Of a DNA stretch of 64,000 bases, positions 25,795-48,107 are shown piece by piece. The translations under genes were made by a program, and so were the position numbers. Origin of the DNA: Branchiostoma floridae. Lineage: Eukaryota. Under the pieces are notes generated by a model. It was given only the letters and a program-made list of their open reading frames with translations, had not been told where the DNA came from and did not search any database. The stretch lies in the NCBI RefSeq assembly GCF_015852565.1, contig NC_136191.1, forward strand, positions 11,848,578 to 11,912,577. The letters are read 5' to 3'. Numbering within the stretch: position 1 is the stretch's first letter; every line of letters begins with the position of its first letter.

Positions 25795-26060
25795 CAGAAG
25801 AGACTACCCGGTGTTCGTGTCAGAAGTGATTGTTGTATTTTCGTGAGGGCTTACGTGTCCCATATATGTAATTCGTAGGCAGACGAGTTTGATTTACCGT
25901 TCTTCGTAGAGAATCTAGTCTTATTCACGTAACCCGGTGTTCGTGTCAGAAGTGATTGTTGTATTTTCGTGAGGGCTTACGTGTCCCATATATGTAATTC
26001 GTAGGCAGACGAGTTTGATTTACCGTTCTTCGTAGAGAATCTAGTCTTATTCACGTAATT
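25795..26060. repeat. Direct tandem duplication, roughly 131 bp x 2
   Basis: 25798-25929 and 25930-26060 are near-identical (cccggtgttcgtgtcagaagtgattgttgtattttcgtgagggcttacgtgtcccatatatgtaattcgtaggcagacgagtttgatttaccgttcttcgtagagaatctagtcttattcacgtaa). Confidence 0.85.
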
Positions 26061-28510: not shown

Positions 28511-29132
28511 ATAGCCAAATTAATACCAACTATTACGGGCTCAGTTGAACTAAATTTACTAGTGATCAAATCAAGTACAAAATTCAGTGCTGGGTAGTTC
28601 TACACGTACGGCATCTATGTGTGCCATAATGTAGGGTCCACTAAGATGCAATGATTTTCGGAAGATTGTACTGAACAATTTATGCTAATTGGGTAGGGAA
28701 GATGATGAACTGAGACTATTTATACAATTAAATTTGCATAATCAGTTGAAAATACTAAAATCTTCACTAGAAATGGTTAATAAAATTTGTGTGAGGTCGT
28801 GAAACTCTAGTTTTATCTCTGGCACTTTGACTATAGACCGTAAAAAACCGTGCAGCCATGGCAGTAACGTGTCGCCCTGCAGTGGTGACATCATTATTCT
28901 CGCCCACCTCTGGCGTATGACTTAATCAACCTAAGCACGAAATTCCACTGTTGAGTAACCTTGACCATGGTGGTGGTAAGTGAAAGCTCATCATTTTTCT
29001 ACGAGTAAGCACAACAGGAATATGATGGACATGTGTCAACTAAGAAGCTTTAAGGTTATAATGTAGCTACCTTTGCCAGAATGGCTAAGGTTATGTTTTA
29101 GGCTTGTACGTCTGTCTGTCTGTCTGTGTGTG

Positions 29133-29790
29133 AACAGCATAACTCGAGAAGCTTTGGATGGATCCTGATGATATTTGGTAGGTGGGTAGGGGTCGGGAAA
29201 ACAACGGTCAAGTTTCATAATGGGCCCCCTAGCGACTTGCCAAGGTACTGCAGCGGAACTTCCATTTTTGATATCTCGTGTTCTGGACATGCTGTGGTTG
29301 TGATTTTTAAGTGGTAGATAGCCCTTGGAACAGAGAGTAAGTGCTGTGAGTTTGGACCACCTAGTGGCTTTTTTTGGAACTGCAGGCGTCGGTTTCCTTT
29401 CAAACTTTTGATGAGAATAACTCAAGAACGTTTTGACGGATCGCCATGATTTTTGGTATGTAGATAGAATGAGTGATGACTTACATAATGAGATACTGAT
29501 TATGCAAATCAACAGCTAATTTGCATAATTAATGAGGAAAGTTTATAAAGTCACTTCATTCCATGATAGAACTTTCAAACTTGTCACGTATGTAGCTGGA
29601 AAGGAGAGAAATGTCGATAGATATCTATTATGCAAATTACGACCTCATTTGCATAACTAATTAGAAAATATGAACGCATTGATGAATCGTCATGATTTTT
29701 GGTATGTAGAAAGCCTTAAGTAAAGACTTACATAATGAGACACCAATTACATAAATTATCAGCTAAGTTTCATAATTAATGAGAAAAGTT
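29133..29790. repeat. Three adjacent copies of a short interspersed repeat family (additional copies at about 37470-37560 and 41215-41345)
   Basis: A shared core ...ataactc(a/g)agaa(g/c)(c/g)tt.ggatgga(t/c)c.tgatgatatttggta(t/g)gt(a/g)g... appears at 29133-29250, 29407-29530, 29660-29790, 37478-37560 and 41218-41345. Several copies are followed by an ...attatgcaaat...ttgcataattaatga... segment. Confidence 0.5.
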
Positions 29791-30959: not shown

Positions 30960-31320
30960 TTCTTGGAAACGTTAACAGCAGGCCAGTGTTAGAAACATTT
31001 AAACCACTGTTTGACAAATATTTGTACCTTAGCTCTCGTGCTTTACTTTCGACTAGTGTCTGACGATAGGTATGTACATTCTTGGAAACGATAAACGTTA
31101 ACAGCAGGCCAGTGTTAGAAACATTTATACACCACTGTTTGACAAATATTTCCACCTTGGTTCCCGGCTCTTTACTTTCGACTAGTGTCTGAAGATGGGC
31201 ATGTACATTCTTGGAAACGATAAACGTTAACAGCAAAGCAGTGTTAGAAACATTTATACACCACTGTTTGACAAATATTTCCTCCTTGGTTCCCGGTTCT
31301 TTACTAGTGTCTAAGATGGG
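30960..31320. repeat. Roughly 120-bp tandem repeat x 3
   Basis: The unit tacattcttggaaacgataaacgttaacagcaggccagtgttagaaacatttatacaccactgtttgacaaatatttccaccttggttcccggctctttactttcgactagtgtctgaagatgggcatg repeats with minor changes. The minus-strand ORF 30955-31338, which has an internally repeated peptide, is an artefact of this repeat. Confidence 0.8.
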
Positions 31321-34300
31321 TATGGTGATTGAGGTCAATGCCTAATGAATGGAAACGGTAACGTCAACTGGGGGTTGCTGTGAAAGTACTACTAATATAT
31401 ATTTTTCGCTAGCTAGCTTTTGCTAACACAATTGTCATTTCTTTCAAGGTAAAAGAAAGTGTAGAACAACCCAGACTAACCTAAGATTTCAAAATCATTG
31501 TGGATTATATGTGAAAACAATCCGATGATCCATGGCGATTTGCACAGGAAGACGTTGTCTTGGACTGTGGTAGTTGGCCAGCGGTTTATGCGGTATTTTT
31601 TTTTTACAAAATGGGAATCTAACCTAAACGGGCTTCAAACATCTAGCCTTCTACTCGAGATATCAGTGCACGTTTTTATAAAGTTTGACCATACTGTATC
31701 TTAAGCTTCTAGTGCGGGGTCAAACCTGGTATCGCTAGAAAGGTCTATCTCCGAGTAATTGTAATCTGAAAACCATTTTTAAGTGTTAGCGTTTGCATAA
31801 AATCTACAATCTAAATATTTCATGGAGGTATGAGGTCGTCGAACCCTAGTTAAAAAAACAGATCTTTGGGGTAAATGCATTTTAGCTTACATACGTAAAG
31901 AATTGCTCATTTCAGTCATGGATACTGTTCTTACCACCGCAGATCTGCTTGGAGATGGATTGGCTGGATCTACCGGATTGGAGTGAACCATGCTATATTT
32001 GCTTGCAAATGTTCCCTATCTACTGAGTATAATTGCCTAATGCTGGCAACAATTTTCGGTATCACTAACAAAATAGTGTGTCTGACTACTGTGCATCAGA
32101 CTACTGTGCATCATCTTGTGTGCATCGTCTGATGCCCCTTTATGTCCCATGGGACCAGTGCACGGAGCTGTGCCCTCCAATCAACCCGCGTGACCCGGAG
32201 GTTAATAGGTACGTCCTCGAATTACCAGGGTGCAACGCGACACTCTGGCCAGGATCAGGACAGTCGTAGATACAAAGCTTTAAAGGTGTATATATAGATA
32301 ATTCGAAACAACTAGTAGTATTCAGCGAGATATTTTCACTCTTATTGACGTAGGATTGTGCTCCCTGTGTGCTTTTTTGATATGCGAATATTTTTTGTAA
32401 CTCTATAATAAAACTACGTGTCCTGACACTATAGTTAAGATGATCGAAACATCAATTAGACACTTTTTCTACCTACCCCGATCTTCAATGTGTTCTTTAT
32501 TTCATCAGTCAAGACTATGCTGACAGGTGTTCCTGGTTCAAAACAACGTTTCCTTTTCCTACCCTTTAAAGTGATTGGGTTTAGCATTTCATCACACATA
32601 GACCACAGTCAAATCCGGTTAGACTCCAGTCAAGTAGAGGCTTTGTGTTCAACATAAGGACTGAAAGTCAGCGTGGTAAGGAAACCATCATGCGCTGCGT
32701 TAAAACAAACCCCCTCAAACCGTCTGTGACAGGCAGACAGCGTTTCCGCCACCCCGTTGAAGGTTATTCGGAAGGTGCTAAATCTTGGTCTAAGTCAAAA
32801 CATGATATTCTATTTTACTCGAGTCAAAGATCCCGTCTACGATTGATCAAGTCCAGGTTTGAAACCGCTACGCTATGGACATTCTGCTGAGTGCTTAGGT
32901 CTTGGGGTTGAGGGAAGAAAGAGCGTACGCGTGATTATTGTACAGTTATCCTCGCCCTTTGACAAATTCTCCGTCTCATAGTGCGAAAGGCATTCCAAAC
33001 CAATTAGTACGGGATCGGTACGATTACTTGACATTCTGTCTTCTTTATTTTTCTTGAGGGTATCGCCTGTGGGAACCACCTAACTATCCCCTACCACATG
33101 TATCCAATTCTGTCCCTGGTAGCTGGAACATTGCTGTTGAAGCCCAACACCCAGATGGTTTAAGTCCTTTGACATATTCGTGAGGCACTGATTTATTCTC
33201 AGAACGTTCACGGTCACTGTAATTGGCAAACAAAGCACTCGAAGAAAGCCCGCGTCAGAACAACAGGAGAAAGCCACTCTGAATTAAGACTCTGGGTCGT
33301 CTTGCTCCAACGCATCTTTCCATATAGCAGACATTCGTCTTGTAGTTTACCTCCGCTGCCTGCAGCATAATCCTTCATACTTGATCTAAGTACAGACTTC
33401 GACTGAGTTCAAGGGAAGGGTGCCTCGCGTAGCCCGGCCGCCCGACATACTTAATCTATTTGGTCTGGAGCAGACCCACAGTTCTAACACCCACCAGGCC
33501 ACTAGAAGAACCTGTTTCTCGTCCTTGATTGACGTTTTCCAAAACAAGCACTTCAGGAGCTTACACATAGTCCCGGGGAAGCAAAGTAGGGGTTCAACTC
33601 TTCCTCTATGTTAACATCACGCTCTCTCCCGGGCCAGGAATCGTTAGACTGGAAGTCTACAATATACAGATTCGGCATTACGGGAGATGTCTCCTAATTT
33701 TGATGACGTCATTTGTGCACCGGAAGTGACGATACTGTCAGGTTCAAGACTCGAAGATTTTCGATGTCAGAATTATTGATGACAAGAATGCAAATGTTCG
33801 CATAACTAATAATGGTTTACTCTCACTATGTAAAGAAACTGAATAGATAAAGATTAGATAGACAAATAGATGTTAGAAACTTGTCCACAAAAGTAACAGG
33901 CATTTCATTTGTAGGACGATTTGTCACGGTACATAACTGTGTAAACATTACGTACAATGTTATTAAAGCTTCTGTAACTCCTGCTGCAAAAATCTTTGCT
34001 CTCGTGGTACCCCCAACGCTCAACTGTATCGAAGTCGCCCAGTCCTGCCATAGGAGACTTTCAACAGTACAGCCTGTGGGAGATGAAGCTAGCCCAGGCC
34101 TACCAGACGACACAAGGGCTTGTTCAGGACTCTACTTCCAAATCACGGTCGACGTCTGAGTCGACGTTTTGCAACGACCTGACGACGTTTGCTGGTGCTT
34201 GTAGCGGAAGGCGTTTTTAGGCGAAACACCGGTGATTTTCCTAGAACATCGGCGGGCGAGACTTAAAGAAGTGTACGAGAGATTTTTGGACTTTCATTCA

Positions 34301-34458
34301 TACATGACTGAGTCTGTACCCCGCATACTGAGTGTACACCACCTATACCAGCTGGTTCTCAGGGCGTGTTGTTTGGGGCGTTGACAACTACAAAGGAGTC
34401 TGGGTTTGTGAGAAAGGGACAAATCGCCTGTAGTGGACCTTATCGCGAAAGGACAACA

Positions 34459-37400
34459 ATGAGAACGGAGATGATACTCATAAGAACCACATTGTTGCTG
34501 CTGGTGACTCTGGTTGTGTTGAACGTATCGTGTGTGGGGTCTACCAAGGCGCAGCGCAAGTCCACGAACGGATACCAGGGAGGGACCAGGTAAGATTTCA
34601 TATGAATGTGATATAACGTTACATGCAGTTATTAGTATTACCAAGCAAACGTAACGAAGTGTGTTCAAGCGCAACATTGTAGAGAGTCAATGGTAATGAT
34701 GCTCAGGTGCAGATGTGAATGCGTGATATCAGCATGTCTAATTGTCTCCTGAATCACTCCTTGTAATAGCGTGGGCCCATGAGTGTTGCCCAGGTCACGT
34801 ACCCTTTGTAGAGTCGAACACACACGACCGTAATTTTTCTGCACTCAATCTGTCTCGAAAGTGTTTGCACGTGTCCAAAGCTTTGTGTATCATCAGATGC
34901 AACAATCGGTCCTTTGTGTACGCCCATGAAAACCTTAGCTGTGTCCTTTAAGAATCAGTTGGCTGGTTGAATATTATGTACTGGTTGCTACCCCCTGTTC
35001 CTATGTTTTTTAACTGTAAGACATGATGCCTCTGTCGGATAATATGAGGGTGATTGCTAAAGATACCGAAGACAAGGTTGTGAACCTGACTTTGAAAATG
35101 TCTACACGTTAGGTACGAAGCACACTGCACTGCATTATTATTGCTCTCACGCCCATCCCGTCCCTACCATTACATGGGTGTCGGGGATAGCACACAGCGT
35201 ACCGCACCTCGGCACGGCAGGAATTCTTACAGACTTGACTCTGGCCCGTGGATGGCATGTTAGGATGTGTGTATGGCGGCATGGCGACTACTCCTGTACT
35301 TTTCAGACACAGCCTCAAAAGTAACCATACAACACGCAGAGCCGTTTCCAGAAACATCACGTATTTAGGGGGAGCTCCGAGAATGTCTGTCAGATGGTCC
35401 TGTGCAATATTGAACAGTGATGGTGATTAACTTAAACAGTTATCCCCACGGGACAACAACGCAGGAAAATTGCAAGATCATAATGTTTTTTTTAACATTC
35501 CTTTGCGTTAACGTTGTCCTTGATTCGTTTGTGGCGACAGAAGACCTTGTCACCACGCCACTTGTATCCCTATGCCACTTTGTAATCCTGTTTTATCTGG
35601 CATGGGGACTTCGGATGAATTATGTCCACTATAACTACCAATAAACTACCTAATGAGACCAATTGCAAGCCCGCCTCTAGACACTACACAAACAGAAGGT
35701 GCTAGCCCGTCCCCTGTTTAACCTGAAGGTAATGCCTTGAACCATGACATGTTAATCTAACACAGTTGTTCCACAACCCTTACTTCCACAAACGTTATCT
35801 AATAAAGGGTTAATGCCCCGCCCCGAGGTGTATATGGTGAGATAATCCCTGGTCAGGTGCGATAACCACCGAATAAACCACCGAGTGAGCGTAGCGAACG
35901 AGGTGGTTTATGAGGTGGTTATCGCACCTGACCAGGGATTATCTCACCATATACACCGAGGAAAAGGCGGGGCATTAACGTTATTATCATATAGCCTATT
36001 CAACTGACACATATAGCCTATCCAACTGACACAGGGCGTTTTCTGCGTGTTTACTGTAGCAACCTGCGGATGACCGCGGGTGACCCCCGGTAGAACGCCC
36101 GTTCTGTTCGATCACGTCAGATCGAACAAGATTCGTGTTCTAATACCCCGAATAGAAGTCAAATTTGACCATCGGGCTTGTTTAGTGGGGGTGTTGAAAG
36201 TCATGTTCAATCTTTTTCTATTTAAAAATCATTGATATCTTTTTAATTGTGTTGTAGTTTAACATAAATTGTTCGAAATAATGTACAGTACGCTGTTTAA
36301 TAGATATAATCGATAAATACTTAAGACTAGTATTAGCGTCCTGTCCCCTCTATAATGGTGCGGTCCAAAAAGTGGTCGGTTATTCTAATAACCGACCACT
36401 TTTCAGGTTACTGCCTGATAACCCATAGGAAATGGGGGCCTCTGATTGGTCAACTCCATCTGGCTATATGATAATACATCTTAGATGTCAACATCTTAGT
36501 GATATCCATTGCATATACATGACCTTCCGTGAGCTAGACATCCTTGTCTGAGCCGTGAAGCCGACATATTTTGATATGGTGTTTACTTTTGAGCCGTCAA
36601 CCCAACGTGCAAGTGTAATTATGACATCTGAAATCTTATACGATGCTGTTTATTAAGAAGATCACTATTATAAGTGACATGGCTTTAGGTTAAAATGTCA
36701 TGCCCATAGTACCCAATAGACACTGTGAGCATTCTGGCTACTTTCCGGTTTAGATTAGTACATAGACAGAAGGCCAGGTATAAGGTAAAACGAACTCCTC
36801 CTGGACATGTGTTTTCTGTTATACGTGCTTGTGCTATCTTTGTAATACCTGTGAGAACAAATTATGGCCACGGCCAGTTCTAGAGAGCTAAGTATGTCTT
36901 GTCCGCTCTTGCATCACTTGTCTGGAGGTGCCTTGGCAGCGATTATTTCTGATTAACAGTCTTGTCGCCATAGTCGTGTATGGATGGAGAATGTCACGGC
37001 TTGTAACATTGATAAATAGACAGAATCTGTTAGATGATAGATAAAGTCAGAAACAGTCACCTGCGATCACCTGTATACACTGAGCTGCAGGTGCAAGTTA
37101 TTTTCCTCACACCCTGTAAATCTAACCCTTGTAGCATGTCTATTTAAAATCCATTATGTAAGCTTTTAATCATGCTGAAGTCAGACAGGTGGCACTGACA
37201 GTTCAAGGTGAACAGGAAGATGGCGACTTTGCTGCGGGCAGTCCTCTTTGGACTTTTTTAGTTTGTATGTATTGAATAAACGTGGTGCATATTCATGATA
37301 CTTAACATTGATTTAATCGGTTCAGAATGTCATCAATAGAATGAAGTGCTTCAGAAAACGTGCTAAGAGTTGAGGTCGCGTAGTAACTTGTTAATTACCT

Positions 37401-40400
37401 TCGCCAAGAAGGCACGAAGATTTTGTTTTCGGCGTCGTTTGCATGTGTGTTTGCTTGTACATGTATGTGTGTAAATGACCAACATAACTCAAGAATTGCT
37501 GGATGCGGATTGTGTCGATATTTAGTATTAGTATAGGGCAGGTCTTGCTTTTTATGTAAAATGATGCAAACATGTTATGGACTTCAATAAGCCAAGATCT
37601 GTGCAAAAATAAGACTTTTCAGTGTACCAATCACAGCTTAACCCTATCCAGGCTGAAGTAAGGTATGCAACATCACATCTTAAACGTTTTGCTGAGGAGG
37701 AAAAGAAGCTTATGGCGTCTGGTGTGTGGTTTTACCCGGCGGCTAGGCGGAAAGGAATCTTGGGAAAGGGGAAGTCTTATATTTTGTTTACAACTGATGA
37801 TAACCAGTTGAAAGACGTGCTGTATTCGTAAGGCATGTTGCCTGTCTGTAGGGGAAGGTACTTAGGTGGTGAGGGATATATCATGATCACAACAGTAGGG
37901 TGAATACCTGCTGGCCAAGTTGTTTCAGATGATAGGTCTGTGCAATACTGAAGGGTATTGTCAAGTGTTTGAATTTTGATTTACTGTACATTTTACAGGC
38001 CAAGGTTTCTAAAGATCAACAGATTAGGAAATATCTAGGCCAAAGGACGAACTGTGCACTGCTAGCAGTGGTGGTCCAAATGATGTATGGTGGTTTACAA
38101 ATTTGTAGTCGGCTGTGGCTTTGCGAGCTCAGCTTGCTAAACGCTAATTAGAAAGTAGTGGCGCTTTGCACGCCAATTTTTCGGTCTGCTTGAAACAAGG
38201 CTGGACAAAGTAATCGAAACGCTCTCCAGGCTTAGCTACGCTTGTTAACGGTGGTGCGAGGATAATTTGGGGCAAGGCTGTGTCAAAACGTTTATGTTGG
38301 AAACTTCTTTTTTCTATAGTGGTAAGAAAAGAACAAAGCTTTCTGGCATAGTCTACACTATAAACAGAGTAACTATACCGGTGTCTTGAAAATGGTCGTT
38401 AGTGTGTGTCTTAAAAGCATTCCACAGTGTGTTTAAGGGACCTCGGAATGCATAGGAATGCATATGTCTATACATAAATATTTCTGTATTTATACATTCA
38501 TGGAAATGTGATCCAATATTTAAGCAATCCAGACCTCACAGACTGGTTTAATAGAAATGTTCATTAGAATTTGTTTGACAAGACTGCAGCTGGGCAAGTC
38601 GGCCATTTTGGGGTCGAACTGTATGTGTCGGTCGAAGTTGTAGCGGTTGCAAAGCCTGTACCGAAGTTGCGAAGCCTGTCCGGACGTGTCCTAGGCTTCG
38701 CAATCGGTCTATTGTGTGTATTATAACGTTGCACTTCAGATTAAACAAAGGTTGGAAAAGCCACTTGCTGAACACTTAAGTTCAAGGGTGTCTGGCAGTC
38801 GTCCCAGAGTCATGCTTCAGGACTGACAGAGACTGATAACGGGATCACCGCCCGCGCGCCTTGCAGTTATTACTACATCCCCAGCCGACAGACAACCTCA
38901 ACAGTCATCAAGCAGGCGAGGTCGCAACGTTATCTCACATCTTGTACTGGTCTCGGCTTATCTCGTGATTGAAAGACTGTAAGTTCTCATTCATCCGCCG
39001 GCTCCAACGTGTGTGGTGACGCGGTGAGAGGTAGCAGCAGACAGCACATGTCAGGTGCACGGACGAACCGCGATTGCGTGCGGATCCGGCAAGCCGAGAA
39101 GCGGGTCGGTTTTGTTATAGGGTTCGACCCGACACCTCGGATACCCCTCGTTTGTTTCACGACATCGTCTGAATACCGTATCAGTCTATTCCTGATGACC
39201 TGATCACATGCAGTTGTCATGCGTTACACAGTCGCCGCCTGCTTTCATTCATAACTTCTGTTTATACTATAGTGTATAATCAACAACAACAATCTCTTCA
39301 GATGAATTTGAATCCGCAATATTTGACGATGAAAATTATGTGGTATCAATCTTAGTTTACAAACATGTCAATTGTTACTTTAACTAAATTATTTTGTCTT
39401 AAAGCTGACTGCGATCAGTTCAAAGCCCATCATGAACTAGTATATAAATTGTATTGACGCTATCGTTATTATGAATTCTGGTTCTAAAGTAACTAGGTTC
39501 TAAAGTAACTAGTCACTGCTGTCGCACGCTGATTACCTTCTGAGTAAACGTTCTCCAACTGCGAGGCAAAAAGCAGGCTCTTTGACACGCTACAACAAGC
39601 GGTTCTGTGAGAAACTCGATCAGGGTCAAGACGCCAGAATAGAGCTTCTTTAACTGTAGGCCACCCAGGGGAAAGTGAAGTTCGCTGAGTGACACCGGGA
39701 GCACGGCCTTTCTGGAGACCCTCACAGTAAACACAACTGTCGGGAGAGATGCCGGGGCCTCCCGGGCCGGTCGTCTTGCTGTCCCGGCTGTCTTCTGTCC
39801 GTCCGTCACCATCTCATCACCTTGAAACCAGTAAATAAATGGTGGTGCTTCGGAAGGGACTTGGACCTGGTGAATCCTTACCTCTTTTCGGAGCTCTGAC
39901 GGTCACAACGAAAAACTAGACTGGGGGAAATCTACGGAGCCTCTCATGCTTTGATATTTGGAGTCTGCTTTTAGATGTCTGATTTAAGTAGCTCAGAACA
40001 ACACGGTTGCTTCTAGACAATCCCACCATCTACCGACAAACTGCAAATGAATTCATGTTTCTTGAGCTAAACGTGCAAAAACAGCCCTGAAAATGTCATT
40101 GAATTCTAAACCCATACGGATTTGTGCCAGTTAAAACCAGAGATATAGCTTGACTACTGACTTAGCTTGACATGCTAGAGTTTATGGTCACGTGACACAA
40201 TGCTGCCACGATCGTAAGGAGTAAAGGCCTCGTAAATCCCAGGCTGTAGCTGCCAGAACCCGGATGTTCGTCTATCGCCATGACGCAACTATTGGGACTG
40301 TGGGATCCTAGGAATGTCAGGATTTATTGCAGGGGGTGACACTACATTCAATTACACATCCAGAGCGTGTTAGGGCGACACTGACCTTGTATCTCTTGTG

Positions 40401-42785
40401 CTCTTCGCGTTGCACCTGGTTTCGAATGGCAGCTAGTGATGAATGGCGTCTGTGCCCTTGGGTAGCAGAGTACGGGTGGTGTCTGGGGCCTTGGTTGGTC
40501 TTGGATCATTCTTGCAAACTCTTTATCATGGCTTTATTAATCCAATCAAAATCAATCAAAATAAAATGTCGCATTAATCGAGTTTAAGACCTGCTTATGA
40601 GACTCGGATGCCCAGGAGTGTTTTAATGTTTCCTCGTACAAACTCCCTTTAATAGCAAAGAAATCTTTTTGTTTTCGAAATTTCACAGGGGCGCAGGCTC
40701 ACATTGATATTGGCGGATGCACAAATCACAGATCCTCTTGAAATGAAAGATAGTAGTATGCCCAAAAAATACAACAGAAGTCACATATATTCTGAATGAT
40801 ACAGTTCAAGTCCCAGGCGAGAAGACAATGGATGTTACATCCCAGACAGCTGTTCAGGAGTGCTGTACATTTGTTGATCCAACAAGACCCATACATACAC
40901 CACTACCTCATATATTACACTCCTGTCTGCGCCGTTATCTCCCAGTCCCTGTCTCTGTCACGGCCGCCATGCTCCCTGCAGAGATAAGTGCTTGTTTTCA
41001 CACAAGATAAACAGGTGGCTGACCCAGCATAAATGTTTGGCGCGACTGAAGGGTTTCTACTTCTTCCAATCTACACACTGGAGAGTATATTAGGGCTGCA
41101 GTGCGTTGTTAGGAATGGCAACAACTAAAGCAATATTAGCGACAATAATAAACGACAAGAAAACGTATACGACGATATGAATTAGCATTGCGATTGGTTT
41201 TGACTTCTCTGTTTGTGCAGCATAACTCAAGAAGCTGTGGGTGGATCTGTGTGATATTTGTTATGTAGCAAATGTTACGGTGGCAAATGAAGGACCATTT
41301 TGATTGAGGGCCCCTGACGCCTTCTCAAAGTACTGCAGCATAGCATTTAGTTTGTGTATCAACAATATAAGATTATATAATCCAAGCTACCGATGATGTA
41401 TGACACAAGTCGCATAACGTACGTCTTGAGCTCTTGTCCGCTGAAAAGGTAAATCACCCAAAGAAATAACATGTCTGCACAGTTTGTGCATGTACCGAAC
41501 TTGAGAGGAAATATGTTCCTGCTTACCCTTTCAATTGACACTTAGTAATATGTGATGAGGCACATATGAGAGGGTTATGCGTTGTAATTATATACAGAAC
41601 ACAGGCGGACTGTTGAAAGACACATAACTCTTTTAACAGGCCATGTTTCAGCAGCCAAATGTTTGATCTCAGAGTTTACATAACCCAAGTTTAAAAGCCT
41701 GGCTAGTCCCCAAACTTAGCAGACGTAAGTTGTGAGGAGACCGCATGAAGTGTTATTTCTGTGTAAGTTATCCTTTGTTAACATTGACCACAGACTGTCT
41801 GGCAATTTGAAGTAGAAAACATCCGGCTGACGAGTCCAACCCTGTTTAATGTTTAAGTAACAGTCCGATCAATCTAAGTGGGTTTTAAATCTACTTTCAC
41901 TTGTTTGCTTTTCTACTGAGTAAGGCAGGCACGGTTTAACGGTTCATTGTGATTTGCTATAATGGATGTGTTGCCTGATTTGTGAACGTTGGGTCAAATG
42001 TGACTATCTTTTCTTTACAAAGATTAGATTCATAATATTATAGTGGTTGTATAATATAATGCATAATGAAGTTGAGAACACACTGACTACTATTATGTGT
42101 AACAGTTATGCATAGTGACAAATTCTTTTAGGTGCCTCTTCTTCCTATGGTTGCCCAACCTGAAAACGACAGCCTATTCAGCAGCCATTTCTGCATCAGA
42201 TTCAGCACTGAGATTCAGCCCCTAGCATCACGACAGAAGCACAAACCAGCCGCCAAGCCTACAGCTTAGAAAAGTGCTATCGTAGTAACGTTAACTTTTT
42301 TTCCCTTATTTTTTCGTTTTCAGTAACTGGTGCGCCTACACAGTGTCCAAGCAGGTGTCCTGTAAGGTTAAGAATGGCTCGGCAGTCTACAAACAAGCCT
42401 ACTACATGCCGGGGTGCTCCGTCTGGAAACCTGGCAACTGTTACAGGTAGGCTGGGGAGTATCGTGTGCGGGGCATGTGGCATGGGCAAAGTCAAGACGT
42501 CACTGTGAGCCCTCTCACGGTTAGAGATCTGAACGCATGTGCAGCGACAGGAATTCTAGGTGATATGTCAAAGGTAAAGGCCATAAAAAAGAAAACAGCC
42601 CTTGTCCTGACCATTGTTTCGATTTGCATAACAACGTCCAGGTGGGTTTTGTTTTCTTTTTCAGGGCCTTTACCTTTGATGTATTACCTAGAATTCCTGT
42701 CGTCGCACATACGTTCTGATCTCTGTGAGAGGGCTTATTGTCAGGATTTATGGTTGCTAATACCGTTGTAGTTATATGGTGATGG

Positions 42786-42884
<99 letters not shown>

Positions 42885-44879
42885 TGCTGATGATGATGAT
42901 GATGATGATGATGACGATGATGATGATGATGATGACGATGATGTTGATGATGATGATATAGAGGTGGTCACTAGCACAGATTTGACTATGTACTAGTGAT
43001 GGTCGTGTTCACTATCTCTGTCAGGTACCGGCGGACAGTGCGTCCCACCTACCGAGTGGCGTACAAGACCGTCACGGCCATGGAGTGGAGGTGCTGTCCC
43101 GGCTTCCAGGGAGCAACCTGTCAGGACAGTACGTAAACTAGAGTAGTCTCGTTGTAGTCTCCACCAGATTGACTACGCTTGCTATTGTAGGGACAATAAT
43201 TTGACAGGTGAGTTTTGCTACCAGAGGAGTTGGCTGACCGCTCAGCCAACTTTCCGGAGGGGAAACATTTTAACCTTAGCATGGACTGACTATCCAGATT
43301 CTTTTGCGGAATTCTACGATCACCGTACCCCAGTAAGAAAGTGGGGCTAGTCTCATTAGTTCAGTGCCCGGCTTTAATATTTTCCCATTATGTGCTAGAG
43401 GTAACAACGATTAGTCAAAGTACAATGATAATTGTACGCGACAAGGAATCTCCAAGATGAGATCTACCGGGTTGATGAAGAGACAAAGTGCGTCTCAAAA
43501 GCTTCCCAAGCTACGAACTGTAGTTGTGTGTATTTTGTTAAAAATTTGGTCATACTTCCACAGCTTGCTTCAACTGCACTCGTCTGACAGCTCTAGAGAA
43601 GCGGATGAGTGCTCTGGAGAACACAGTAAGTCTTAGCATTTCACTCACTTTCTCTTTGCGATAACTGTAGAATATGTTTTATTTTCATGTATTTGAACTT
43701 TGATCATGACTTAATTCTCCAACCTCAGTTAGCTACCATTACATGAAGCTAGTCTGCGATTTTCTGTGGTACAGAATAGACCAAACGCAACTATTGAAAT
43801 TTTACAGTTTTGTGAATCTCCTAGTCCATATATAATATTCTTATTGCAGGGTCTACCGGTTAGTAGTGACACGAAAGATATGCCAGTCGGCCCACCCCCT
43901 GTCACAAATGGCAAGAAAGCCGACTCGGAGGTGTTATCGACAGGACCTACAGGGCCCGTGGGTCCCCGTGGCCCCCCGGGTCACCCCGGGATTCCCGGGC
44001 GAGCGGGTCCCGAGGGCCCACGGGGAAGGCCCGGGGCACAAGGACCTACCGGGCCTCAAGGGCCTCCAGGACAACCTGGCTTACGGGGAGAAATAGGCTT
44101 ACCTGGGGAACAGGGTGAGTTAGCGAATTATATCAATTTGGTGAGTTGTTGTTGTAGGTACGTAGCAAAAGTTATGAAATAGATGACGAGGATTAGACAA
44201 GTTATGTAGGGGTCAACTGCGCCGACTCCCTTGTAATTTTCTTAAATAAACTTGCATATAACTGTTACATACAATTTACGTTCTGGATCTTTTTTGTAGG
44301 CGAACCAGGCATGCCTGGGACGCCAGGGTTCACCATGGAGGGTTTGCCAGAAGGTATGCCTGACATGTCGGCACTACTCCGCAAGGTGGATCTCCTAGCG
44401 AACAGAGTATCCTTATTGGAGGAACTCATGGCAGTGACGTCAGAAGGTATGAAAAAGGAATAATCTCGTCAGTGACTATGACTTGCCTATAACGTAATTT
44501 TTATGTGTAATTTTCCTGTACTTAACATGACTCGAAGAGCACACGTGTCAATAATTATAACTTCTTACAAAGAATACTCATAATTACCTGTCGTTCCACA
44601 GCGGGTGGATTTCTGCCCGGAGGAGGACCATCTTTACGCCCAGGACCGGGCACCTCACCTAAACCTGACGTCTCGTCCCCCGACTCGTCCCCAGGACCCG
44701 ATCTCGTCCCCAGGCCCCGTCCTGACACGTCACCAACTCCTGCTGAGTTACCAGAACCTGACGTCATCAGTCCTGACGGCAGACCTGGCTCTACCATATA
44801 CCCAGGGTTCCCCGGGGCTGACTATGAAGGGTCAGCAGACCACAATCTACCATTCCTGTTTGAGAGTGAGACTGTATGA
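34459..44879 (+). CDS. EMI-domain-containing short collagen (EMID1/Emu1 or COL26A1-like), 7 exons
   Basis: Exon 1, 34459-34589: signal peptide [27 protein letters not shown], donor GTAAGA. Exon 2, 42324-42446: [41 protein letters not shown] (EMI domain N-terminal half). Exon 3, 43024-43127: [33 protein letters not shown] (EMI C-terminal half with the WRCCPG motif). Exon 4, 43564-43625: [21 protein letters not shown]. Exon 5, 43850-44114: Gly-X-Y run [57 protein letters not shown]. Exon 6, 44300-44447: [11 protein letters not shown] plus coiled segment. Exon 7, 44602-44879: Pro/Ser-rich tail, stop TGA at 44877-44879. Splice phases are consistent across all junctions. Confidence 0.8.
35810..35960. 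repeat. Near-perfect roughly 150-bp palindrome (hairpin with roughly 60-bp arms and roughly 20-bp loop)
   Basis: gttaatgccccgccccgaggtgtatatggtgagataatccctggtcaggtgcgataaccaccgaataaaccacc [gagtgagcgtagcgaacgag] ggtggtttatgaggtggttatcgcacctgaccagggattatctcaccatatacaccgagg aaaa ggcggggcattaac. The arms are exact reverse complements apart from a 4-nt bulge. It lies in intron 1 of the EMI-collagen gene. Confidence 0.85.
36355..36405. repeat. Second short perfect hairpin (17-bp arms, 3-nt loop)
   Basis: aaaagtggtcggttatt cta aataaccgaccactttt, about 500 bp downstream of the large palindrome. Confidence 0.8.
42779..42957. repeat. (GAT)n microsatellite, about 60 units with a few GAC and GCT interruptions
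   Basis: Directly visible. It lies in intron 2 of the EMI-collagen gene, between the two EMI-domain exons. The poly-Ser and poly-Met ORFs at 42741-42977 are artefacts. Confidence 0.95.
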
Positions 44880-45306: not shown

Positions 45307-45488
45307 TTGTAAGAATACTGTTTATCCATGACCTCTACTCGTACAGAAAACATTGCAGCGCTCATTAGCAAAGTCTAGGAAAGGAAAATGTTTCTTGATT
45401 TGCAGTAAAACACTGGTCATGTAACATTTGAGGAGTTGTCGTTAAATCGCACGGTTCATTTTGCGATAGCGTTGACGGGTCCGGGTAT

Positions 45489-45688
45489 TTAGCGGAATAA
45501 CCCGGAATAACCCGGAATAACCCGGAATAACCTTAATAAAGGATGAAAGCTACCGAAATACAGTGTGCTTTGATAAGTTAAGATCGCAGAATGCAATATT
45601 TTGGCATAAAATAATGTATATATGGCCATGGGAACAAGAAATATTACGGTTATTCCGGGTTATTCCGGGTCATTTCGGGTTATTCCGG
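45489..45688. repeat. Small foldback: (CGGAATAAC)n microsatellite arms in inverted orientation
   Basis: 45489-45530 (gaataacccggaataacccggaataacccggaataacc) versus 45645-45688 (ggttattccgggttattccgggtcatttcgggttattccgg), separated by about 110 bp. Confidence 0.7.
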
Positions 45689-46602
45689 TAAATACCCTCA
45701 CGGGCGTTGACGGTGCGGAGGAGGTGAGATTTTTATCGTACAGAAATTGGTACAGTTTGTAAAGTTATCTTTCTGGAATTCGGATGTATTAAAATATAAC
45801 ATTACATTCTAAGGCGTAGTGTCATGTGAGTAAAATGAGCACGACATTTGACGAAAGATTTTGTGGAGGGTATACAGTCAAGTTTATTGTGCAACGATTG
45901 GAACAGTTTACGTGCGGGTGGGAGGGGGGCGTGCGTCTATATATGCAGCTGCAGGAGGTCCTGCAGGACATTTTCGATCGTAAGAGTAACGTACAATTTG
46001 AAAAGATAGTGATCATGAATTCGGACACATTGAAACATATTTCCAAGGAACGGTATATAGTTTTTTTAGTAAAACCAGTGTGTGGGGATTGACGAGAATT
46101 TAGATAGTTTAATGGTGCACTGTGCTTGAGCCGATGCGAGGCATTATGCAGGGCATTTTTGATTGTAAAAATATCGTACAAGTTGAAAAGATGGATCGGA
46201 TTCTAATACATTAAAACATACATTTCCAAAGAATAGTAGAAAACAACGGATTGTAGCTAACTGTTAAACAATCAGCAAAGCAGTTGGCAAGATGTCACAC
46301 CTGAACTTTTGTAGATTTTTGCTTTTTGTTGGTACTAGTAAGATGTTATGTGATCAAGACAATATTTTCTTTCTGTTTCAGTGACGCCTTAGACTGTTCT
46401 CTGCTATATATACAAGTGACACAGTAATATACAGAAACTTACAGCTAGCAAAAGTCTGTACTCAATAAGATTTTACACAGTACACATTTATACTTCTTCT
46501 GCTGAAATCTACGCATTACATTTTGCATCCAACCAAAGAGGTTTGAAAGAGAGTCCTTGATCCAACCAAATTAGACCTTGAGACCTATTAACAGATCATT
46601 GA

Positions 46603-46912
46603 TCACTGTGCATTTTGCACATACCAGACTCAATCGTGCCACTGAGCACTGCATTTTGCACACACCAGACCAATTGTGCCACTGAGCACTGTGCATTTTG
46701 CACACACCAGACCTATCGTGCCATTGAGCACTGTGCATTTTGCACACACCAGACCTATCGTGCCATTGAGCACTGTGCATTTTGCACACACCAGACCAAT
46801 CGTGCCATTGAGCACTGTGCATTTTGCACACACCAGACCAATCGTGCCATTGAGCACTGTGCATTTTGCACACACCAGACTCAATCGTGCCACTGAGCAC
46901 TGTGCATTGTGC
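46603..46912. repeat. 48-bp minisatellite, about 6.5 units
   Basis: The unit cactgtgcattttgcacacaccagacc(a/t)atcgtgccattgag is repeated head-to-tail. The ORFs 46571-47029, 46615-46896, 46630-46914 and 46676-46918 are artefacts of it. It ends 38 bp upstream of the ATG of the 385-aa ORF. Confidence 0.9.
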
Positions 46913-46949
46913 AAATAAAGTCAAGCAAAGAACACATATATTGTGAACA

Positions 46950-48107
46950 ATGTGTGAATCTATTTTATCGGGAAAATACCACCAAGGTGACATCATTTTC
47001 AGTGGAGATAATAGAGGCAAACAATGCACTGCAAATGCTTTAATGGCAGTTGTTAACCACAGTACTTGCAGACAAGCAATTACCTGGACAAGTACAGACC
47101 TTGATGGTGTACTTTTTCAAGGAGATGCACTATACACCTACATAAAACCATCACTAAGATCTGGTGTGGAGTTCCTCTCCGTTGATGATATTCCAGACTA
47201 TTTGCAACTTTACAACAATACTGTACGTGTATCAATAAAAGAGTCTTACACTGGAGACATATTTGCCACAGAAGCAGTCTATCCTTATTACACCTTAAAG
47301 AAAGCCCTAGAAGCAGCATTTGCTGAATCCAACACTTGTCTTTTCATAACAGCACATGGAATAACTGGTTCAACAGTAGCATTGTTGCACGCTGATAACA
47401 AGTATTTTGTTTATGACTCACATGCCAGAAGTCCCATAACAGCATTGCCAGATAGCCATGGCACTTCTACTTTAAGCATGCACAGTTCAAACAGCAATCT
47501 AGTTTCATTCTTGCAACAACTTAACTGGAACACAACATGCAATTTTGAGGTTGTCCCAGTACAAGCAGAAAATGTTTTCTTATCAGTTGAACCTACTGGT
47601 ATACACATTATCAATCTGACTAGCAATGTTTCTTCTATGATTGAGTCAGAAAACTGCTTTCAAGTTCAACAACAACACACATACACCTTGGTTAAACCAG
47701 AGTTTGTATCTACGAAAGAGAACCTACAACAACCAAACACAGCATTTCCATTTGCACCACATTGTAACCAAAGTACTGGGAAAAACATTGTGCCATGCAC
47801 CACAAGCAAACATCCAAGTGCTATGCCAGAGAACAGGAATGAAGGCCTCTTGAATCAATTAGTAATGTCACCAAATGCAGCATCAAATTTAAATGATAAA
47901 AAAGTGCAAGGTCTTGCAATCCAAAGCGCAATATGCAAGGACAAACAAGAAAAACAAACCTATCAACAGAAGACAGAGAGTCTTGCAGAACAAAGAACAT
48001 CATACAAAGCAAAGAAAGCAAATGAGACCTGTGAGCAAAAAGCAGCACAGCAAAGAGCATCATATAAAGCGAACAAAGGTTTCCAGCCAACTTCCCATAG
48101 ATTTTAG
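46950..48107 (+). CDS. Intronless 385-aa ORF of uncertain function; N-terminal half has a Cys...His arrangement compatible with a papain-fold thiol peptidase (OTU/UCH-like?), C-terminal half is Q/K/A-rich low complexity
   Basis: Longest uninterrupted ORF in the window. Candidate catalytic residues: Cys in GDNRGKQCTANALMAVVNH and His in KYFVYDSHARS, about 130 aa downstream. No introns. It is immediately preceded by a 48-bp minisatellite (46603-46912). A 45-bp internal fragment (about 47521-47565) is re-duplicated just downstream (about 48135-48180), which suggests a multi-copy or mobile origin. The family assignment is unverified. Confidence 0.35.
   Translation: MCESILSGKYHQGDIIFSGDNRGKQCTANALMAVVNHSTCRQAITWTSTDLDGVLFQGDALYTYIKPSLRSGVEFLSVDDIPDYLQLYNNTVRVSIKESYTGDIFATEAVYPYYTLKKALEAAFAESNTCLFITAHGITGSTVALLHADNKYFVYDSHARSPITALPDSHGTSTLSMHSSNSNLVSFLQQLNWNTTCNFEVVPVQAENVFLSVEPTGIHIINLTSNVSSMIESENCFQVQQQHTYTLVKPEFVSTKENLQQPNTAFPFAPHCNQSTGKNIVPCTTSKHPSAMPENRNEGLLNQLVMSPNAASNLNDKKVQGLAIQSAICKDKQEKQTYQQKTESLAEQRTSYKAKKANETCEQKAAQQRASYKANKGFQPTSHRF

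What the first reader, a model, noticed from the sequence alone, without database searches (positions are those of the whole stretch)
35810..36405. Long perfect palindrome plus a nearby second hairpin: foldback-type element or recombination hotspot
Arms of about 60 bp with only a 4-nt bulge are very unlikely to arise by chance. A 17-bp-arm perfect hairpin sits about 500 bp downstream. Such structures are typical of foldback or MITE transposons, or of cruciform-forming fragile sites. Neither hairpin resembles the other repeats in the window.
Basis: seen in the sequence. Interest (0 to 1): 0.5.

Follow-up and report, generated by a model that had tools for sequence, protein, structure and literature searches.

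The report
Long palindrome with G·A-zipped hairpin
A 171-base palindrome in non-coding DNA of an animal genome is real and far beyond chance, and all of its few imperfections are G·A mismatches on one strand, so it looks built to fold as a single-stranded DNA hairpin; whether it is a transposon copy could not be tested because no other copy is visible in any data available here.

Summary
Both hairpins exist. The large one spans 35809-35979 and folds as one rod centred on T35892. It has 74 Watson-Crick pairs, one AAAA bulge and four tandem mismatches (DNA fold about -84 kcal/mol, z = -20). Every mismatch is 5'-GA-3' opposite 5'-GA-3' on the + strand. The tip is GCGTAGC, a G-N-A triloop "mini-hairpin". 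Random decay of a perfect palindrome does not give this pattern: other palindromes in the window carry ordinary scattered mismatches.

The 19-nt tip also caps about 80 unrelated hairpins in phage contigs. There its paired steps covary: 65 of 113 are complementary, against 7 expected. So the tip is a selected structural module. Similarity to phage DNA stops at the cap.

Hairpin 2 (36368-36403, 17-bp perfect arms) is unrelated in sequence.

The window is animal DNA with split collagen, Ig/Fn3 and Fringe-like exons. It holds at least 8 short-range inverted-repeat structures, where 0.1 is expected by chance. No transposase or Rep remnant is present.

Neither hairpin has a second copy in the window, and the palindrome has none in the collections searched. 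The palindrome's only possible target-site duplication (TSD), TA or TTAA, is itself palindromic and therefore ambiguous.

Best reading: a MITE- or foldback-like hairpin insertion shaped for single-strand folding. This is unproven.

The parts
35809..35979 (+). Whole 171-bp quasi-palindrome. On the + strand it folds as one hairpin rod centred on T35892.
   Evidence: 74 WC pairs, 4 tandem GA/GA mismatches, 1 AAAA bulge, 3-nt loop; z about -20.
35809..35822 (+). Outer 14-bp clamp GTTAATGCCCCGCC, left arm. It contains the TTAA/TA that could be a TSD.
   Evidence: I5, 100% complementary; only these two copies in the window.
35966..35979 (+). Outer 14-bp clamp GGCGGGGCATTAAC, right arm.
35962..35965 (+). 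AAAA bulge. It is the only indel between the arms.
35825..35826 (+). Tandem G·A block 1, left side. It pairs with GA at 35958-35959 in a CGAG/CGAG context.
   Evidence: The CGAG block is described in PMC10085684.
35958..35959 (+). Tandem G·A block 1, right side.
35871..35872 (+). Tandem G·A block 2, left side. It pairs with GA at 35912-35913 in a CGAA/TGAG context.
35912..35913 (+). Tandem G·A block 2, right side.
35862..35884 (+). Tandem sub-repeat in the left arm: ATAACCACCGA then ATAAACCACCGA. It is mirrored in the right arm as GAGGTGGTTTAT then GAGGTGGTTAT.
   Evidence: Read directly.
35883..35901 (+). Apex module GAGTGAGCGTAGCGAACGA, read as GA-GT-GA-GC-GTA-GC-GA-AC-GA. It holds G·A blocks 3 and 4 and the triloop.
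   Evidence: There are 20 exact hits, and 105 with a free loop base, in IMG/VR; the half-swapped control has 0. Covariation of the NN steps is shown.
35889..35895 (+). GCGTAGC, a d(GCGNAGC) G-N-A triloop mini-hairpin at the tip.
   Evidence: PMC13037366 reports Tm about 70 C for N=T.
35988..36031 (+). Two tandem 22-bp repeats, CATATAGCCTAT(T/C)CAACTGACA, starting 9 bp after the palindrome.
   Evidence: no other copy in the window.
35982..35996 (+). Left arm of a 15-bp perfect inverted repeat (TATTATCATATAGCC). It starts 2 bp after the palindrome and may be the end of an adjacent 495-bp MITE-like unit.
   Evidence: I4; about 0.1 such pairs expected per 64 kb of random sequence.
36462..36476 (+). 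Right arm of the 15-bp inverted repeat (GGCTATATGATAATA).
36368..36403 (.). Hairpin 2: 17-bp perfect arms (AAAAGTGGTCGGTTATT) around a 2-nt CT spacer. It lies inside the 495-bp unit.

Best explanation
The 171-bp sequence is a non-coding, hairpin-forming palindromic insertion. Most likely it is a solo copy or relic of a MITE- or foldback-type mobile element, in an animal genome crowded with such inverted-repeat elements.

Its sequence is built for one strand. When the + strand is single-stranded (as lagging-strand template, in a transcription bubble, or as an excised or replicated intermediate), it can snap into an 83-step rod. Folding would nucleate at the GCGTAGC G-N-A triloop. Every interruption of Watson-Crick pairing would be a tandem sheared G·A pair in a pyrimidine-GA-purine context. 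The - strand would instead carry T/C mismatches and a TAC loop.

Shown: the anatomy, its non-random nature, the strand asymmetry of the sequence, and the recurrence and covariation of the cap module in phage DNA.

Inferred: that the single-stranded DNA hairpin is the selected form, that the element arrived by insertion, and that in duplex form it is prone to cruciform or hairpin-mediated instability.

Hairpin 2 is a separate, unrelated small palindrome. It probably belongs to an adjacent 495-bp unit bounded by inverted repeats.
For: Anatomy and significance.

The mismatches are not decay. All four are GA/GA, and the loop is closed by G..A. A naive random-decay model gives about 1e-13. Three other long palindromes in the same window show ordinary scattered single-base mismatches and indels. 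A scan for hairpins with tandem mismatches finds no other such locus in the window.

Biophysics from the literature. d(GCGNAGC) mini-hairpins are extraordinarily stable and occur at ssDNA priming origins (PMC13037366). CGAG / Py-GA-Pu blocks form stable sheared tandem G·A pairs inside DNA hairpin stems (PMC10085684).

The cap is a real structural module.
- IMG/VR has 105 stretches with GAGTGAGCG-N-AGCGAACGA, and the half-swapped control has 0.
- All four loop bases occur, and the closing pair is WC in 53 of 79 contexts.
- The NN steps are complementary in 65 of 113 cases against 7 expected, using at least 9 pair types.
- The cap sits on context-specific stems.
- A related G·A-zipped hairpin capped by GCGAAGC, not the same 19-nt module, lies on the + strand of a single-stranded DNA microvirus.
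- There is no sense-strand bias relative to neighbouring ORFs.

TE-rich context: at least 8 inverted-repeat structures against 0.1 expected, one with a clean 8-bp TSD.

Boundaries: the inverted repeat ends abruptly and is flanked by TA/TTAA.
Against: - There is no second copy in 64 kb and none in any searchable collection.
- There is no unambiguous TSD.
- The termini (TGCCCC.. after TTAA, ATGCC.. after TA) do not match canonical piggyBac or Tc1/mariner ends, as far as I recall them.
- No transposase, Rep or helicase remnant lies anywhere in the window.
- ViennaRNA DNA parameters give only 1.6 kcal/mol difference between the strands. The claimed strand asymmetry therefore rests on published biophysics of sheared G·A pairs and G-N-A loops, not on a computation made here.
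- A single locus cannot show selection.
Confidence: 0.45

Rival explanations
1. It is a locally generated palindrome, not a transposon. An inverted duplication at this site has since been kept nearly perfect by intrastrand (hairpin-templated) correction. Only mismatches that evade correction survive, namely stable tandem sheared G·A pairs. The locus then behaves as a cruciform or hairpin fragile site.
For: It is single-copy in everything searched. It has no unambiguous TSD. Tandem G·A blocks are unusually stable and helix-compatible (PMC10085684), so they could persist where other mismatches are removed.
Against: The pattern needs eight specific transversions and no others. All four blocks, and the loop, put GA on the same strand, whereas a strand-neutral process should mix GA/GA with TC/TC. 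The tip is exactly a module that is selected as a structure elsewhere. Other palindromes in the same window decay normally.
Confidence: 0.2
2. It is a relic terminus or origin of an element that replicates or moves as single-stranded DNA. Candidates are a parvovirus- or densovirus-like telomere hairpin, a Helitron-type or other HUH-endonuclease-mobilised end, or a eukaryotic counterpart of IS200/IS605 end hairpins. The strand-specific G·A-zipped rod would be the recognised or priming structure.
For: The design is strand-specific. A G·A-zipped hairpin with a G-N-A mini-hairpin tip, related to the cap but not identical to it, occurs on the packaged strand of a microvirus. The same cap module lies directly upstream of TnpB genes of IS200/IS605-type elements. 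Mini-hairpins act at ssDNA priming origins (PMC13037366). The right flank has iteron-like 22-bp repeats, an A+T-rich stretch and a second hairpin. The length is within the range of simple rod-shaped parvoviral hairpins, as far as I recall.
Against: No NS1/Rep, helicase, capsid or TnpA/TnpB remnant lies within 5 kb on either side or anywhere in the window. No partner terminus was found. Similarity to phage DNA is limited to the 21-28-nt cap. Resemblances to AAV Rep-binding GAGC repeats, MVM ACCA motifs and ssoA CS-6 come from memory, are short, and were found after the fact.
Confidence: 0.15
3. It is a hairpin-RNA gene, either a long inverted-repeat precursor of siRNAs or a miRNA-like locus, possibly MITE-derived. 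It would be transcribed and diced.
For: An 83-step stem with a tiny loop is a good Dicer substrate in principle. All-inverted-repeat MITEs are known sources of miRNAs (MADE1 and mir-548, from memory). Tandem G·A pairs are tolerated in RNA helices.
Against: No Rfam family reaches threshold. Only generic sub-threshold hairpin hits appeared, and those were on hairpin 2. There is not a single G·U-type wobble among the 74 pairs, and the tip is a DNA-favoured GCGNAGC motif rather than a typical RNA loop. There is no promoter or expression evidence, and the stem is far longer than animal pre-miRNAs.
Confidence: 0.1
4. It is an assembly or library artefact, such as an unremoved hairpin adapter or a fold-back chimeric read.
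For: Palindromes can be produced by missed hairpin adapters or by strand-switching during amplification.
Against: The centre does not match the hairpin adapters I could recall, and there is no plasmid or vector match. The inverted repeat is short and sharply bounded within unique flanks, rather than running to a read end. The ordered GA/GA pattern is not what a copying artefact gives.
Confidence: 0.03

Closest known systems
MITEs made almost entirely of inverted repeats (e.g. human MADE1) and foldback-type elements
   Same: Short and non-coding. The two arms take up nearly the whole length, with a tiny loop. The ends are sharp and flanked by TA/TTAA. The genome is crowded with similar inverted-repeat elements.
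   Different: No second copy, no unambiguous TSD and no cognate transposase could be shown. The arms hold only one 12-bp sub-repeat doublet rather than the tandem arrays of classic foldback elements. The arm differences are exclusively tandem G·A mismatches on one strand, which is not a described MITE feature as far as I know.
d(GCGNAGC) mini-hairpins and CGAG-block (Py-GA-Pu) sheared G·A hairpins
   Same: The tip GCGTAGC fits the GCGNAGC rule exactly. Blocks 1 and 3 are CGAG opposite CGAG, and blocks 2 and 4 are CGAA opposite TGAG. All fit the Py-GA-Pu rule (PMC13037366, PMC10085684).
   Different: The published cases are short oligonucleotides or short genomic tracts at phage origins or in a human promoter. 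Here the motifs are embedded in a 171-nt rod that is otherwise Watson-Crick paired, in an animal intergenic region. Folding was not measured.
G·A-zipper hairpin cap recurrent in phage genomes (found here; no Rfam family, no paper holding the sequence)
   Same: The 19-nt module is identical (20 exact hits), and the family GA-NN-GA-GC-GNA-GC-GA-N'N'-GA shows covariation. It caps longer stems in most contexts.
   Different: Similarity ends at the cap. The phage stems are 4-27 bp, not 83 steps. The phage contexts are prokaryotic-virus genes, some next to TnpB.
Single-strand origin and terminal hairpins of ssDNA replicons (Microviridae/G4-type priming hairpins, plasmid ssoA, parvoviral telomeres)
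   Same: A long imperfect hairpin that works on one strand only, with G·A-type bubbles or mini-hairpin tips. A microvirus carries a comparable G·A-zipped hairpin on its packaged strand.
   Different: No replication or capsid genes are nearby. The host is an animal chromosome. No function was tested.
IS200/IS605 end hairpins and integron attC sites
   Same: Recombination substrates that are recognised as folded single strands, with strand choice set by non-Watson-Crick features.
   Different: Those are bacterial and much shorter. IS200/IS605 elements need similar left- and right-end hairpins and a TnpA. attC sites need R/L boxes (GTTRRRY / RYYYAAC), which the ends here (GTTAATG / CATTAAC) do not satisfy.

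Membership tests
MITE (miniature inverted-repeat transposable element) | Terminal inverted repeats at both ends of a short non-coding element | tested here: met
   The 14-bp perfect outer and 56-bp inner inverted repeats span the whole 171 bp. No ORF or Pfam domain is present.
MITE (miniature inverted-repeat transposable element) | Target-site duplication flanking the inverted repeats | tested here: inconclusive
   Only TA (35811-12 / 35976-77) or TTAA (35810-13 / 35975-78) fit. Both are palindromic and so cannot be told apart from the repeat itself. No non-palindromic direct repeat abuts the ends. An 8-bp AACGTTAT repeat (35791-98 / 35977-84) is offset by 10 bp on the left and is only weakly significant.
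MITE (miniature inverted-repeat transposable element) | Multiple dispersed copies in the genome | not testable with these tools
   There is no second copy in the 64-kb window and none in metagenome, viral or GTDB collections. Those collections do not contain this organism, and the source genome is not available.
Foldback (FB-type) transposon | Long inverted arms built from arrays of short tandem sub-repeats | tested here: not met
   Only one 11/12-bp doublet per arm (35862-35884) is present. TRF finds no array in the arms.
piggyBac-type MITE | TTAA TSD with CCC...GGG-type termini | tested here: inconclusive
   TTAA is present on both sides, but the element would then start TGCCCC and end GGGGCA. 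The canonical terminus is quoted from memory.
Parvovirus-/densovirus-like endogenous element | Terminal hairpin adjoining NS1/Rep and capsid coding sequence | tested here: not met
   Pfam on all ORFs of 45 aa or more in 31-41 kb, 75 or more in 41-60.5 kb and 85 or more in 1-31 kb finds no NS1, Rep, helicase or capsid domain.
IS200/IS605-type element or derived palindrome-associated element | Similar sub-terminal hairpins at both ends, with TnpA/TnpB or family copies | tested here: not met
   Hairpin 2 is not similar to the palindrome. No OrfB/TnpA domain is in the window. Only the 19-nt cap is shared with structures upstream of phage TnpB genes.
Helitron 3' end (considered for hairpin 2) | Short hairpin 10-12 nt upstream of a CTRR-3' end inserted before T, with a 5' TC end and family copies | tested here: inconclusive
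   CTGA|T lies 11 nt after hairpin 2 (36415-36419). This is expected by chance at a few percent. The stem (17 bp) is longer than typical, and no 5' end, Rep/Hel or other copy was found.
Known RNA family (miRNA, snoRNA, ribozyme) | Match to a curated covariance model at gathering score | tested here: not met
   Rfam has 0 hits at gathering score in the window. Only weak generic hairpin hits appear at E of 0.01 or above, all far below gathering score.
d(GCGNAGC) mini-hairpin / CGAG-block sheared G·A hairpin | Sequence rules: GC-GNA-GC tip, and tandem GA opposite GA flanked 5' by a pyrimidine and 3' by a purine | tested here: met
   tip GCGTAGC; blocks CGAG/CGAG (twice) and CGAA/TGAG (twice). The rules come from PMC13037366 and PMC10085684.
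d(GCGNAGC) mini-hairpin / CGAG-block sheared G·A hairpin | Physical formation of sheared G·A pairs and a strand-specific stability difference | not testable with these tools
   The nearest-neighbour model gives -83.5 (+) against -81.9 (-) kcal/mol, but it does not parameterise these motifs. NMR or melting is needed.

The most novel reading that the evidence does not exclude
The palindrome is the working end or origin of a eukaryotic element that moves or replicates through a single-stranded DNA hairpin. On this reading the + strand G·A-zipped rod with a G-N-A mini-hairpin tip is recognised or primed strand-specifically. It would use the same structural cap that phages, including single-stranded DNA microviruses and IS200/IS605-type elements, place on their hairpins. 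That would make it an animal-genome example of a hairpin class so far characterised only in phage and plasmid biology.
Probability: 0.12. Interest if true: 0.7.

Novelty: new variant of a known kind. Interest (0 to 1): 0.35.

Why it matters
As a locus, it is one palindrome in the non-coding DNA of an animal. If it is just another MITE copy, it is ordinary.

What stands out is the design. Every departure from perfect symmetry is a tandem G·A mismatch on one strand, and the tip is a G-N-A mini-hairpin. Such a pattern cannot come from neutral decay, so the sequence was probably shaped as a single-stranded DNA hairpin. Strand-specific hairpin substrates are well known in bacteria and phages (attC sites, IS200/IS605 ends, ssDNA origins) but are hardly documented in animal chromosomes.

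The side result may be worth more than the locus. A short structural cap, GA-NN-GA-GC-GNA-GC-GA-N'N'-GA, is strongly over-represented and covarying in phage genomes. It has no Rfam family, and no paper in the searchable library holds its sequence.

Long near-perfect palindromes are also known triggers of replication stalling and rearrangement, so the site is a candidate hotspot of instability.

Tried and rejected
1. Bacterial or phage element (integron attC, telomere-resolution site, plasmid origin). This was my first impression from the GC-rich ends and the iterons. I rejected it because the window is animal DNA with split collagen, Ig/Fn3 and Fringe-like exons and no dense coding. The attC box rules are not met, and there is no plasmid or phage BLAST hit.

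2. Copy-number search.
- The arm 20-mer found nothing in metagenomes or viral contigs, and one chance hit in a GTDB MAG with unrelated flanks.
- The termini-plus-gap pattern found nothing in metagenomes.
- Two further palindrome segments found nothing in viral contigs, and hairpin 2 found nothing there either.

3. Identifying the organism. The 385-aa ORF has no homologue. The titin-like exons reach only 31-49% identity to echinoderm and vertebrate proteins. The genome is therefore not in the protein collection, and I ran no further search on translated palindrome arms.

4. Autonomous partner element. Pfam on all sizeable ORFs of the window found only host exons and one Herpes_teg_N-like protease ORF 11 kb away.

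5. Relatedness of the two hairpins: not significant.

6. Known RNA families: none. For the phage loci there were none at gathering score, and only a sub-threshold RAGATH-7 hit.

7. Literature searches for the terminus, the cap and its variants returned only a chance primer match or nothing.

8. Motif resemblances recalled from memory were kept as leads only, because they are short and were found after the fact. They are AAV Rep-binding GAGC repeats, MVM (ACCA)n with its GA/GAA bubble, HSV OBP box CGTTCGC, and ssoA CS-6 TAGCGA.

9. CpG decay or other mutational bias as the source of GA/GA was rejected: it would give transitions, not paired transversions.
Full report
**1. The observation**

The sequence at 35809-35979 is a 171-bp palindrome. 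The repeat finder reports two arm pairs:
- 56-nt inner arms, 35827-35882 / 35902-35957, 96% complementary;
- 14-nt perfect outer arms, 35809-35822 / 35966-35979.

Folded as single-stranded DNA, the region reaches -83.5 to -84.8 kcal/mol. Dinucleotide-preserving shuffles give about -20 to -21 (z about -20 to -21; none of 200 shuffles comes close).

The second hairpin lies at 36368-36403. It has 17-bp perfect arms around a 2-nt spacer (z = -6.9). Perfect hairpins with arms of 12 nt or more occur at only three loci in the window, against 0-1 in random sequence.

A self-BLAST of 34000-38500 against the window finds no other copy of either hairpin. Mismatch-tolerant searches of their arms agree. 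The two hairpins are not significantly alike.

**2. Fine anatomy**

Walking the pairs from the outside in shows that the apparent 19-nt loop continues the stem. The whole element is one rod centred on T35892. It contains:
- 74 Watson-Crick pairs;
- one AAAA bulge (35962-35965);
- four tandem mismatches;
- a 3-nt loop.

Every mismatch is 5'-GA-3' opposite 5'-GA-3' on the + strand:
- 35825-26 / 35958-59;
- 35871-72 / 35912-13;
- 35883-84 / 35900-01;
- 35887-88 / 35896-97.

Each lies in a pyrimidine-GA-purine context (CGAG/CGAG or CGAA/TGAG). The tip is GCGTAGC, in which G35891 and A35893 flank the loop base. There is no other kind of mismatch and no G·T wobble.

A naive model of random decay of a perfect palindrome gives about 1e-13 for this pattern. 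Three other long palindromes in the window (11288-11618, 42508-42735, 49585-49802) carry ordinary scattered single-base mismatches and indels. A scan for hairpins that contain tandem mismatches finds no second locus of this kind.

On the - strand the same positions would be T/C mismatches with a TAC loop. The nearest-neighbour model sees only 1.6 kcal/mol between the strands, but it does not parameterise these motifs.

The published biophysics is clear:
- d(GCGNAGC) forms an extraordinarily stable mini-hairpin with a sheared G·A pair. Tm is about 70 C for N=T. It is found at single-strand priming origins of phage G4 and relatives, at ssiA and at N4 promoters (PMC13037366).
- CGAG / Py-GA-Pu blocks form stable tandem sheared G·A pairs inside DNA hairpin stems (PMC10085684).

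**3. Surroundings**

The window is animal nuclear DNA.
- It has no tRNA and no Rfam hit, and only 12 ORFs of 120 aa or more, the longest 385 aa.
- It has split exons for collagen (43733-44179), an Ig I-set domain and Fn3 domains (60835-63436), and Fringe-like glycosyltransferase exons, one of them at 2120-2329 on the - strand.
- The titin-like exons are at best 31-49% identical to echinoderm or vertebrate proteins.
- The one long ORF (46950-48107, with a Herpes_teg_N-like protease domain) has no homologue.

The organism is therefore not in the searchable collections. No ORF within 5 kb of the palindrome, or anywhere else in the window, carries a transposase, Rep, helicase or capsid domain.

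The window is, however, crowded with inverted-repeat elements. At least 8 independent structures have perfect arms of 15 bp or more within 1 kb, against 0.1 expected. One of them, at 52907-52969, has a clean 8-bp TSD, GTATGGAG.

Immediately to the right of the palindrome lie:
- two 22-bp tandem repeats (35988-36031);
- a 15-bp perfect inverted repeat (35982-35996 / 36462-36476), which starts 2 bp after the palindrome and encloses 495 bp, including hairpin 2.

This looks like a second, adjacent MITE-like unit.

**4. Is it a transposon?**

The inverted repeat ends abruptly. The only TSD candidates are TA or TTAA. Both are palindromic and so cannot be told apart from the repeat itself. An 8-bp direct repeat, AACGTTAT (35791-98 / 35977-84), is offset and only weakly significant.

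Copy number is the decisive test, and it cannot be made here:
- An arm 20-mer and a termini-plus-gap pattern gave nothing in JGI metagenomes.
- Palindrome segments and hairpin 2 gave nothing in IMG/VR.
- GTDB gave one chance 20-mer.
- Plasmid and phage records gave nothing.

The MITE or foldback reading is therefore supported by context and shape, not by the defining tests.

**5. An unexpected link**

The 19-nt apex, GAGTGAGCGTAGCGAACGA, has 20 exact matches in viral contigs. Three other palindrome segments of 19-21 nt have none. With the loop base free there are 105 stretches, and a control with the two halves swapped has none.

Further features of these matches:
- All four loop bases occur (A 59, T 20, G 14, C 13).
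- There are 79 distinct contexts with no conservation outside the module.
- The closing pair is Watson-Crick in 53 of 79 contexts.
- In about half of the contexts the module tops a longer stem of context-specific sequence.

Freeing the second step of the zipper tests for covariation. Of 113 newly ascertained occurrences, 65 have complementary NN/N'N', against 7 expected, and they use at least 9 pair types.

The module is therefore a selected structure: GA-NN-GA-GC-GNA-GC-GA-N'N'-GA.

Where it occurs:
- It is mostly intergenic. In three loci (two independent contexts: L011/L014 and L015) it lies directly upstream of TnpB genes of IS200/IS605-type elements.
- A long G·A zipper capped by GCGAAGC lies on the + strand of a single-stranded DNA microvirus.
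- Its G·A strand shows no bias towards the sense strand of neighbouring ORFs, 118 against 127 in a crude test. This fits a DNA-level rather than an mRNA-level role.

No Rfam family and no searchable paper holds the sequence. Similarity between the animal palindrome and these loci stops at the 21-28-nt cap. Given the small design space (16 NN steps times 4 loop bases), shared structure rather than shared descent is the economical explanation.

**6. Interpretation**

The most likely reading (0.45) is a MITE- or foldback-like palindromic insertion whose sequence has been shaped for folding of the + strand as single-stranded DNA.

Rivals:
- a locally formed palindrome kept homogeneous by hairpin-templated correction, with only G·A blocks surviving (0.2);
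- a relic end or origin of an element based on single-stranded DNA (0.15);
- a hairpin-RNA locus (0.1);
- an artefact (0.03).

Hairpin 2 is an unrelated small palindrome, probably part of the adjacent 495-bp unit.

**7. Verdict**

The locus is ordinary in kind (a palindromic repeat in a repeat-rich animal genome) but unusual in design. It cannot be filed as a member of any transposon family with the evidence available. Interest is moderate (0.35). The recurrent phage hairpin cap found along the way deserves its own follow-up.

Noticed in passing
IMG/VR loci L002-L201 (e.g. L011:9922-9940, L015:907-925, L008:5914-5932, L006:1854-1872): A structural hairpin cap, GA-NN-GA-GC-GNA-GC-GA-N'N'-GA, is strongly over-represented in phage contigs. 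The GT/AC version has 105 stretches, and a half-swapped control has 0. It shows covariation of the NN steps (65 of 113 complementary, 7 expected), all four loop bases, and no flanking conservation. No Rfam family covers it, and no paper in the library holds the sequence.
   Followed up: partly
L011:9870-10048, L015:850-1044; same architecture in L007, L016/L017, L026, L035, L053, L054, L060, L096: A conserved structured element of about 130 nt lies directly upstream of TnpB genes in L011 and L015. It has an outer helix GCGGGC..GCCCGC, pairing between CCCCTAC and GTAG(T/G)GGG, a small GNRA-type hairpin, and a variable stem carrying the cap. TnpB was identified by OrfB_IS605 plus Cas12f1-like TNB domains. 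The only Rfam signal is a sub-threshold RAGATH-7 hit (E = 0.16). It could be a left-end structure, a guide-RNA-related RNA or an IStron-like RNA.
   Followed up: partly
L022 (MK496750.1, Capybara microvirus Cap1_SP_222, record 2019-2055): The + strand of a single-stranded DNA microvirus carries GCGAGCGAGCGAGCGAGC-GAA-GCGAGTGAGCGAGCGAG. This is a long G·A-zipper hairpin capped by the classic GCGAAGC mini-hairpin, at the 3' end of a hypothetical-protein CDS.
   Followed up: no
window 52907-52969: A 63-bp palindromic mini-element (GGCTTTAGTAAAGTTGACGGCC…) is flanked by a perfect 8-bp TSD, GTATGGAG. This is the signature of a hAT-type MITE. Its left arm is internally duplicated (a 23-bp tandem).
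   Followed up: partly
window 4591-4639; 9629-10020; 11288-11618; 28732-29509; 42508-42735; 45483-45697; 49585-49802: Seven further palindromic or inverted-repeat-bounded structures are present. They include 110-bp arms at 11.3 kb, 35-bp perfect arms at 9.6 kb, and arms made of CGGAATAACC x4 at 45.5 kb. None is related to the finding. Their arm mismatches are the ordinary scattered kind.
   Followed up: partly
window 46597-48107: A 385-aa ORF (46950-48107) has a Herpes_teg_N-type cysteine-protease domain (E = 4e-7) and no homologue in 5.8 billion proteins. It is preceded by a 42-bp x 7.5 tandem array (46597-46913). It may be an orphan TE or viral gene.
   Followed up: partly
window 35791-35798 and 35977-35984: An 8-bp direct repeat, AACGTTAT, lies on both sides of the palindrome. 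The left copy is 10 bp outside it and the right copy overlaps its last 3 bp. My rough estimate is p about 0.03. It could be a TSD of a slightly larger insertion, or chance.
   Followed up: partly
window 36415-36419: CTGA followed by T lies 11 nt after hairpin 2, which is the geometry of a Helitron 3' end. No 5' end, Rep/Hel or other copy was found, so it is probably chance.
   Followed up: partly
window 43733-44460; 60835-63946; 2120-2329 (-): Host gene fragments are present: collagen triple-helix exons, an Ig I-set exon and Fn3 exons of a titin/twitchin-like gene, and Fringe-like glycosyltransferase exons. They establish that the window is metazoan nuclear DNA. The palindrome lies about 8 kb upstream of the collagen exons.
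   Followed up: partly
window 8759-9343; 25806-26058; 30967-31305; 42776-42957: Tandem arrays are present: 163 bp x 3.6, a perfect 126-bp duplication, 129 bp x 2.7, and an (ATGATG)n microsatellite of 30 units.
   Followed up: no
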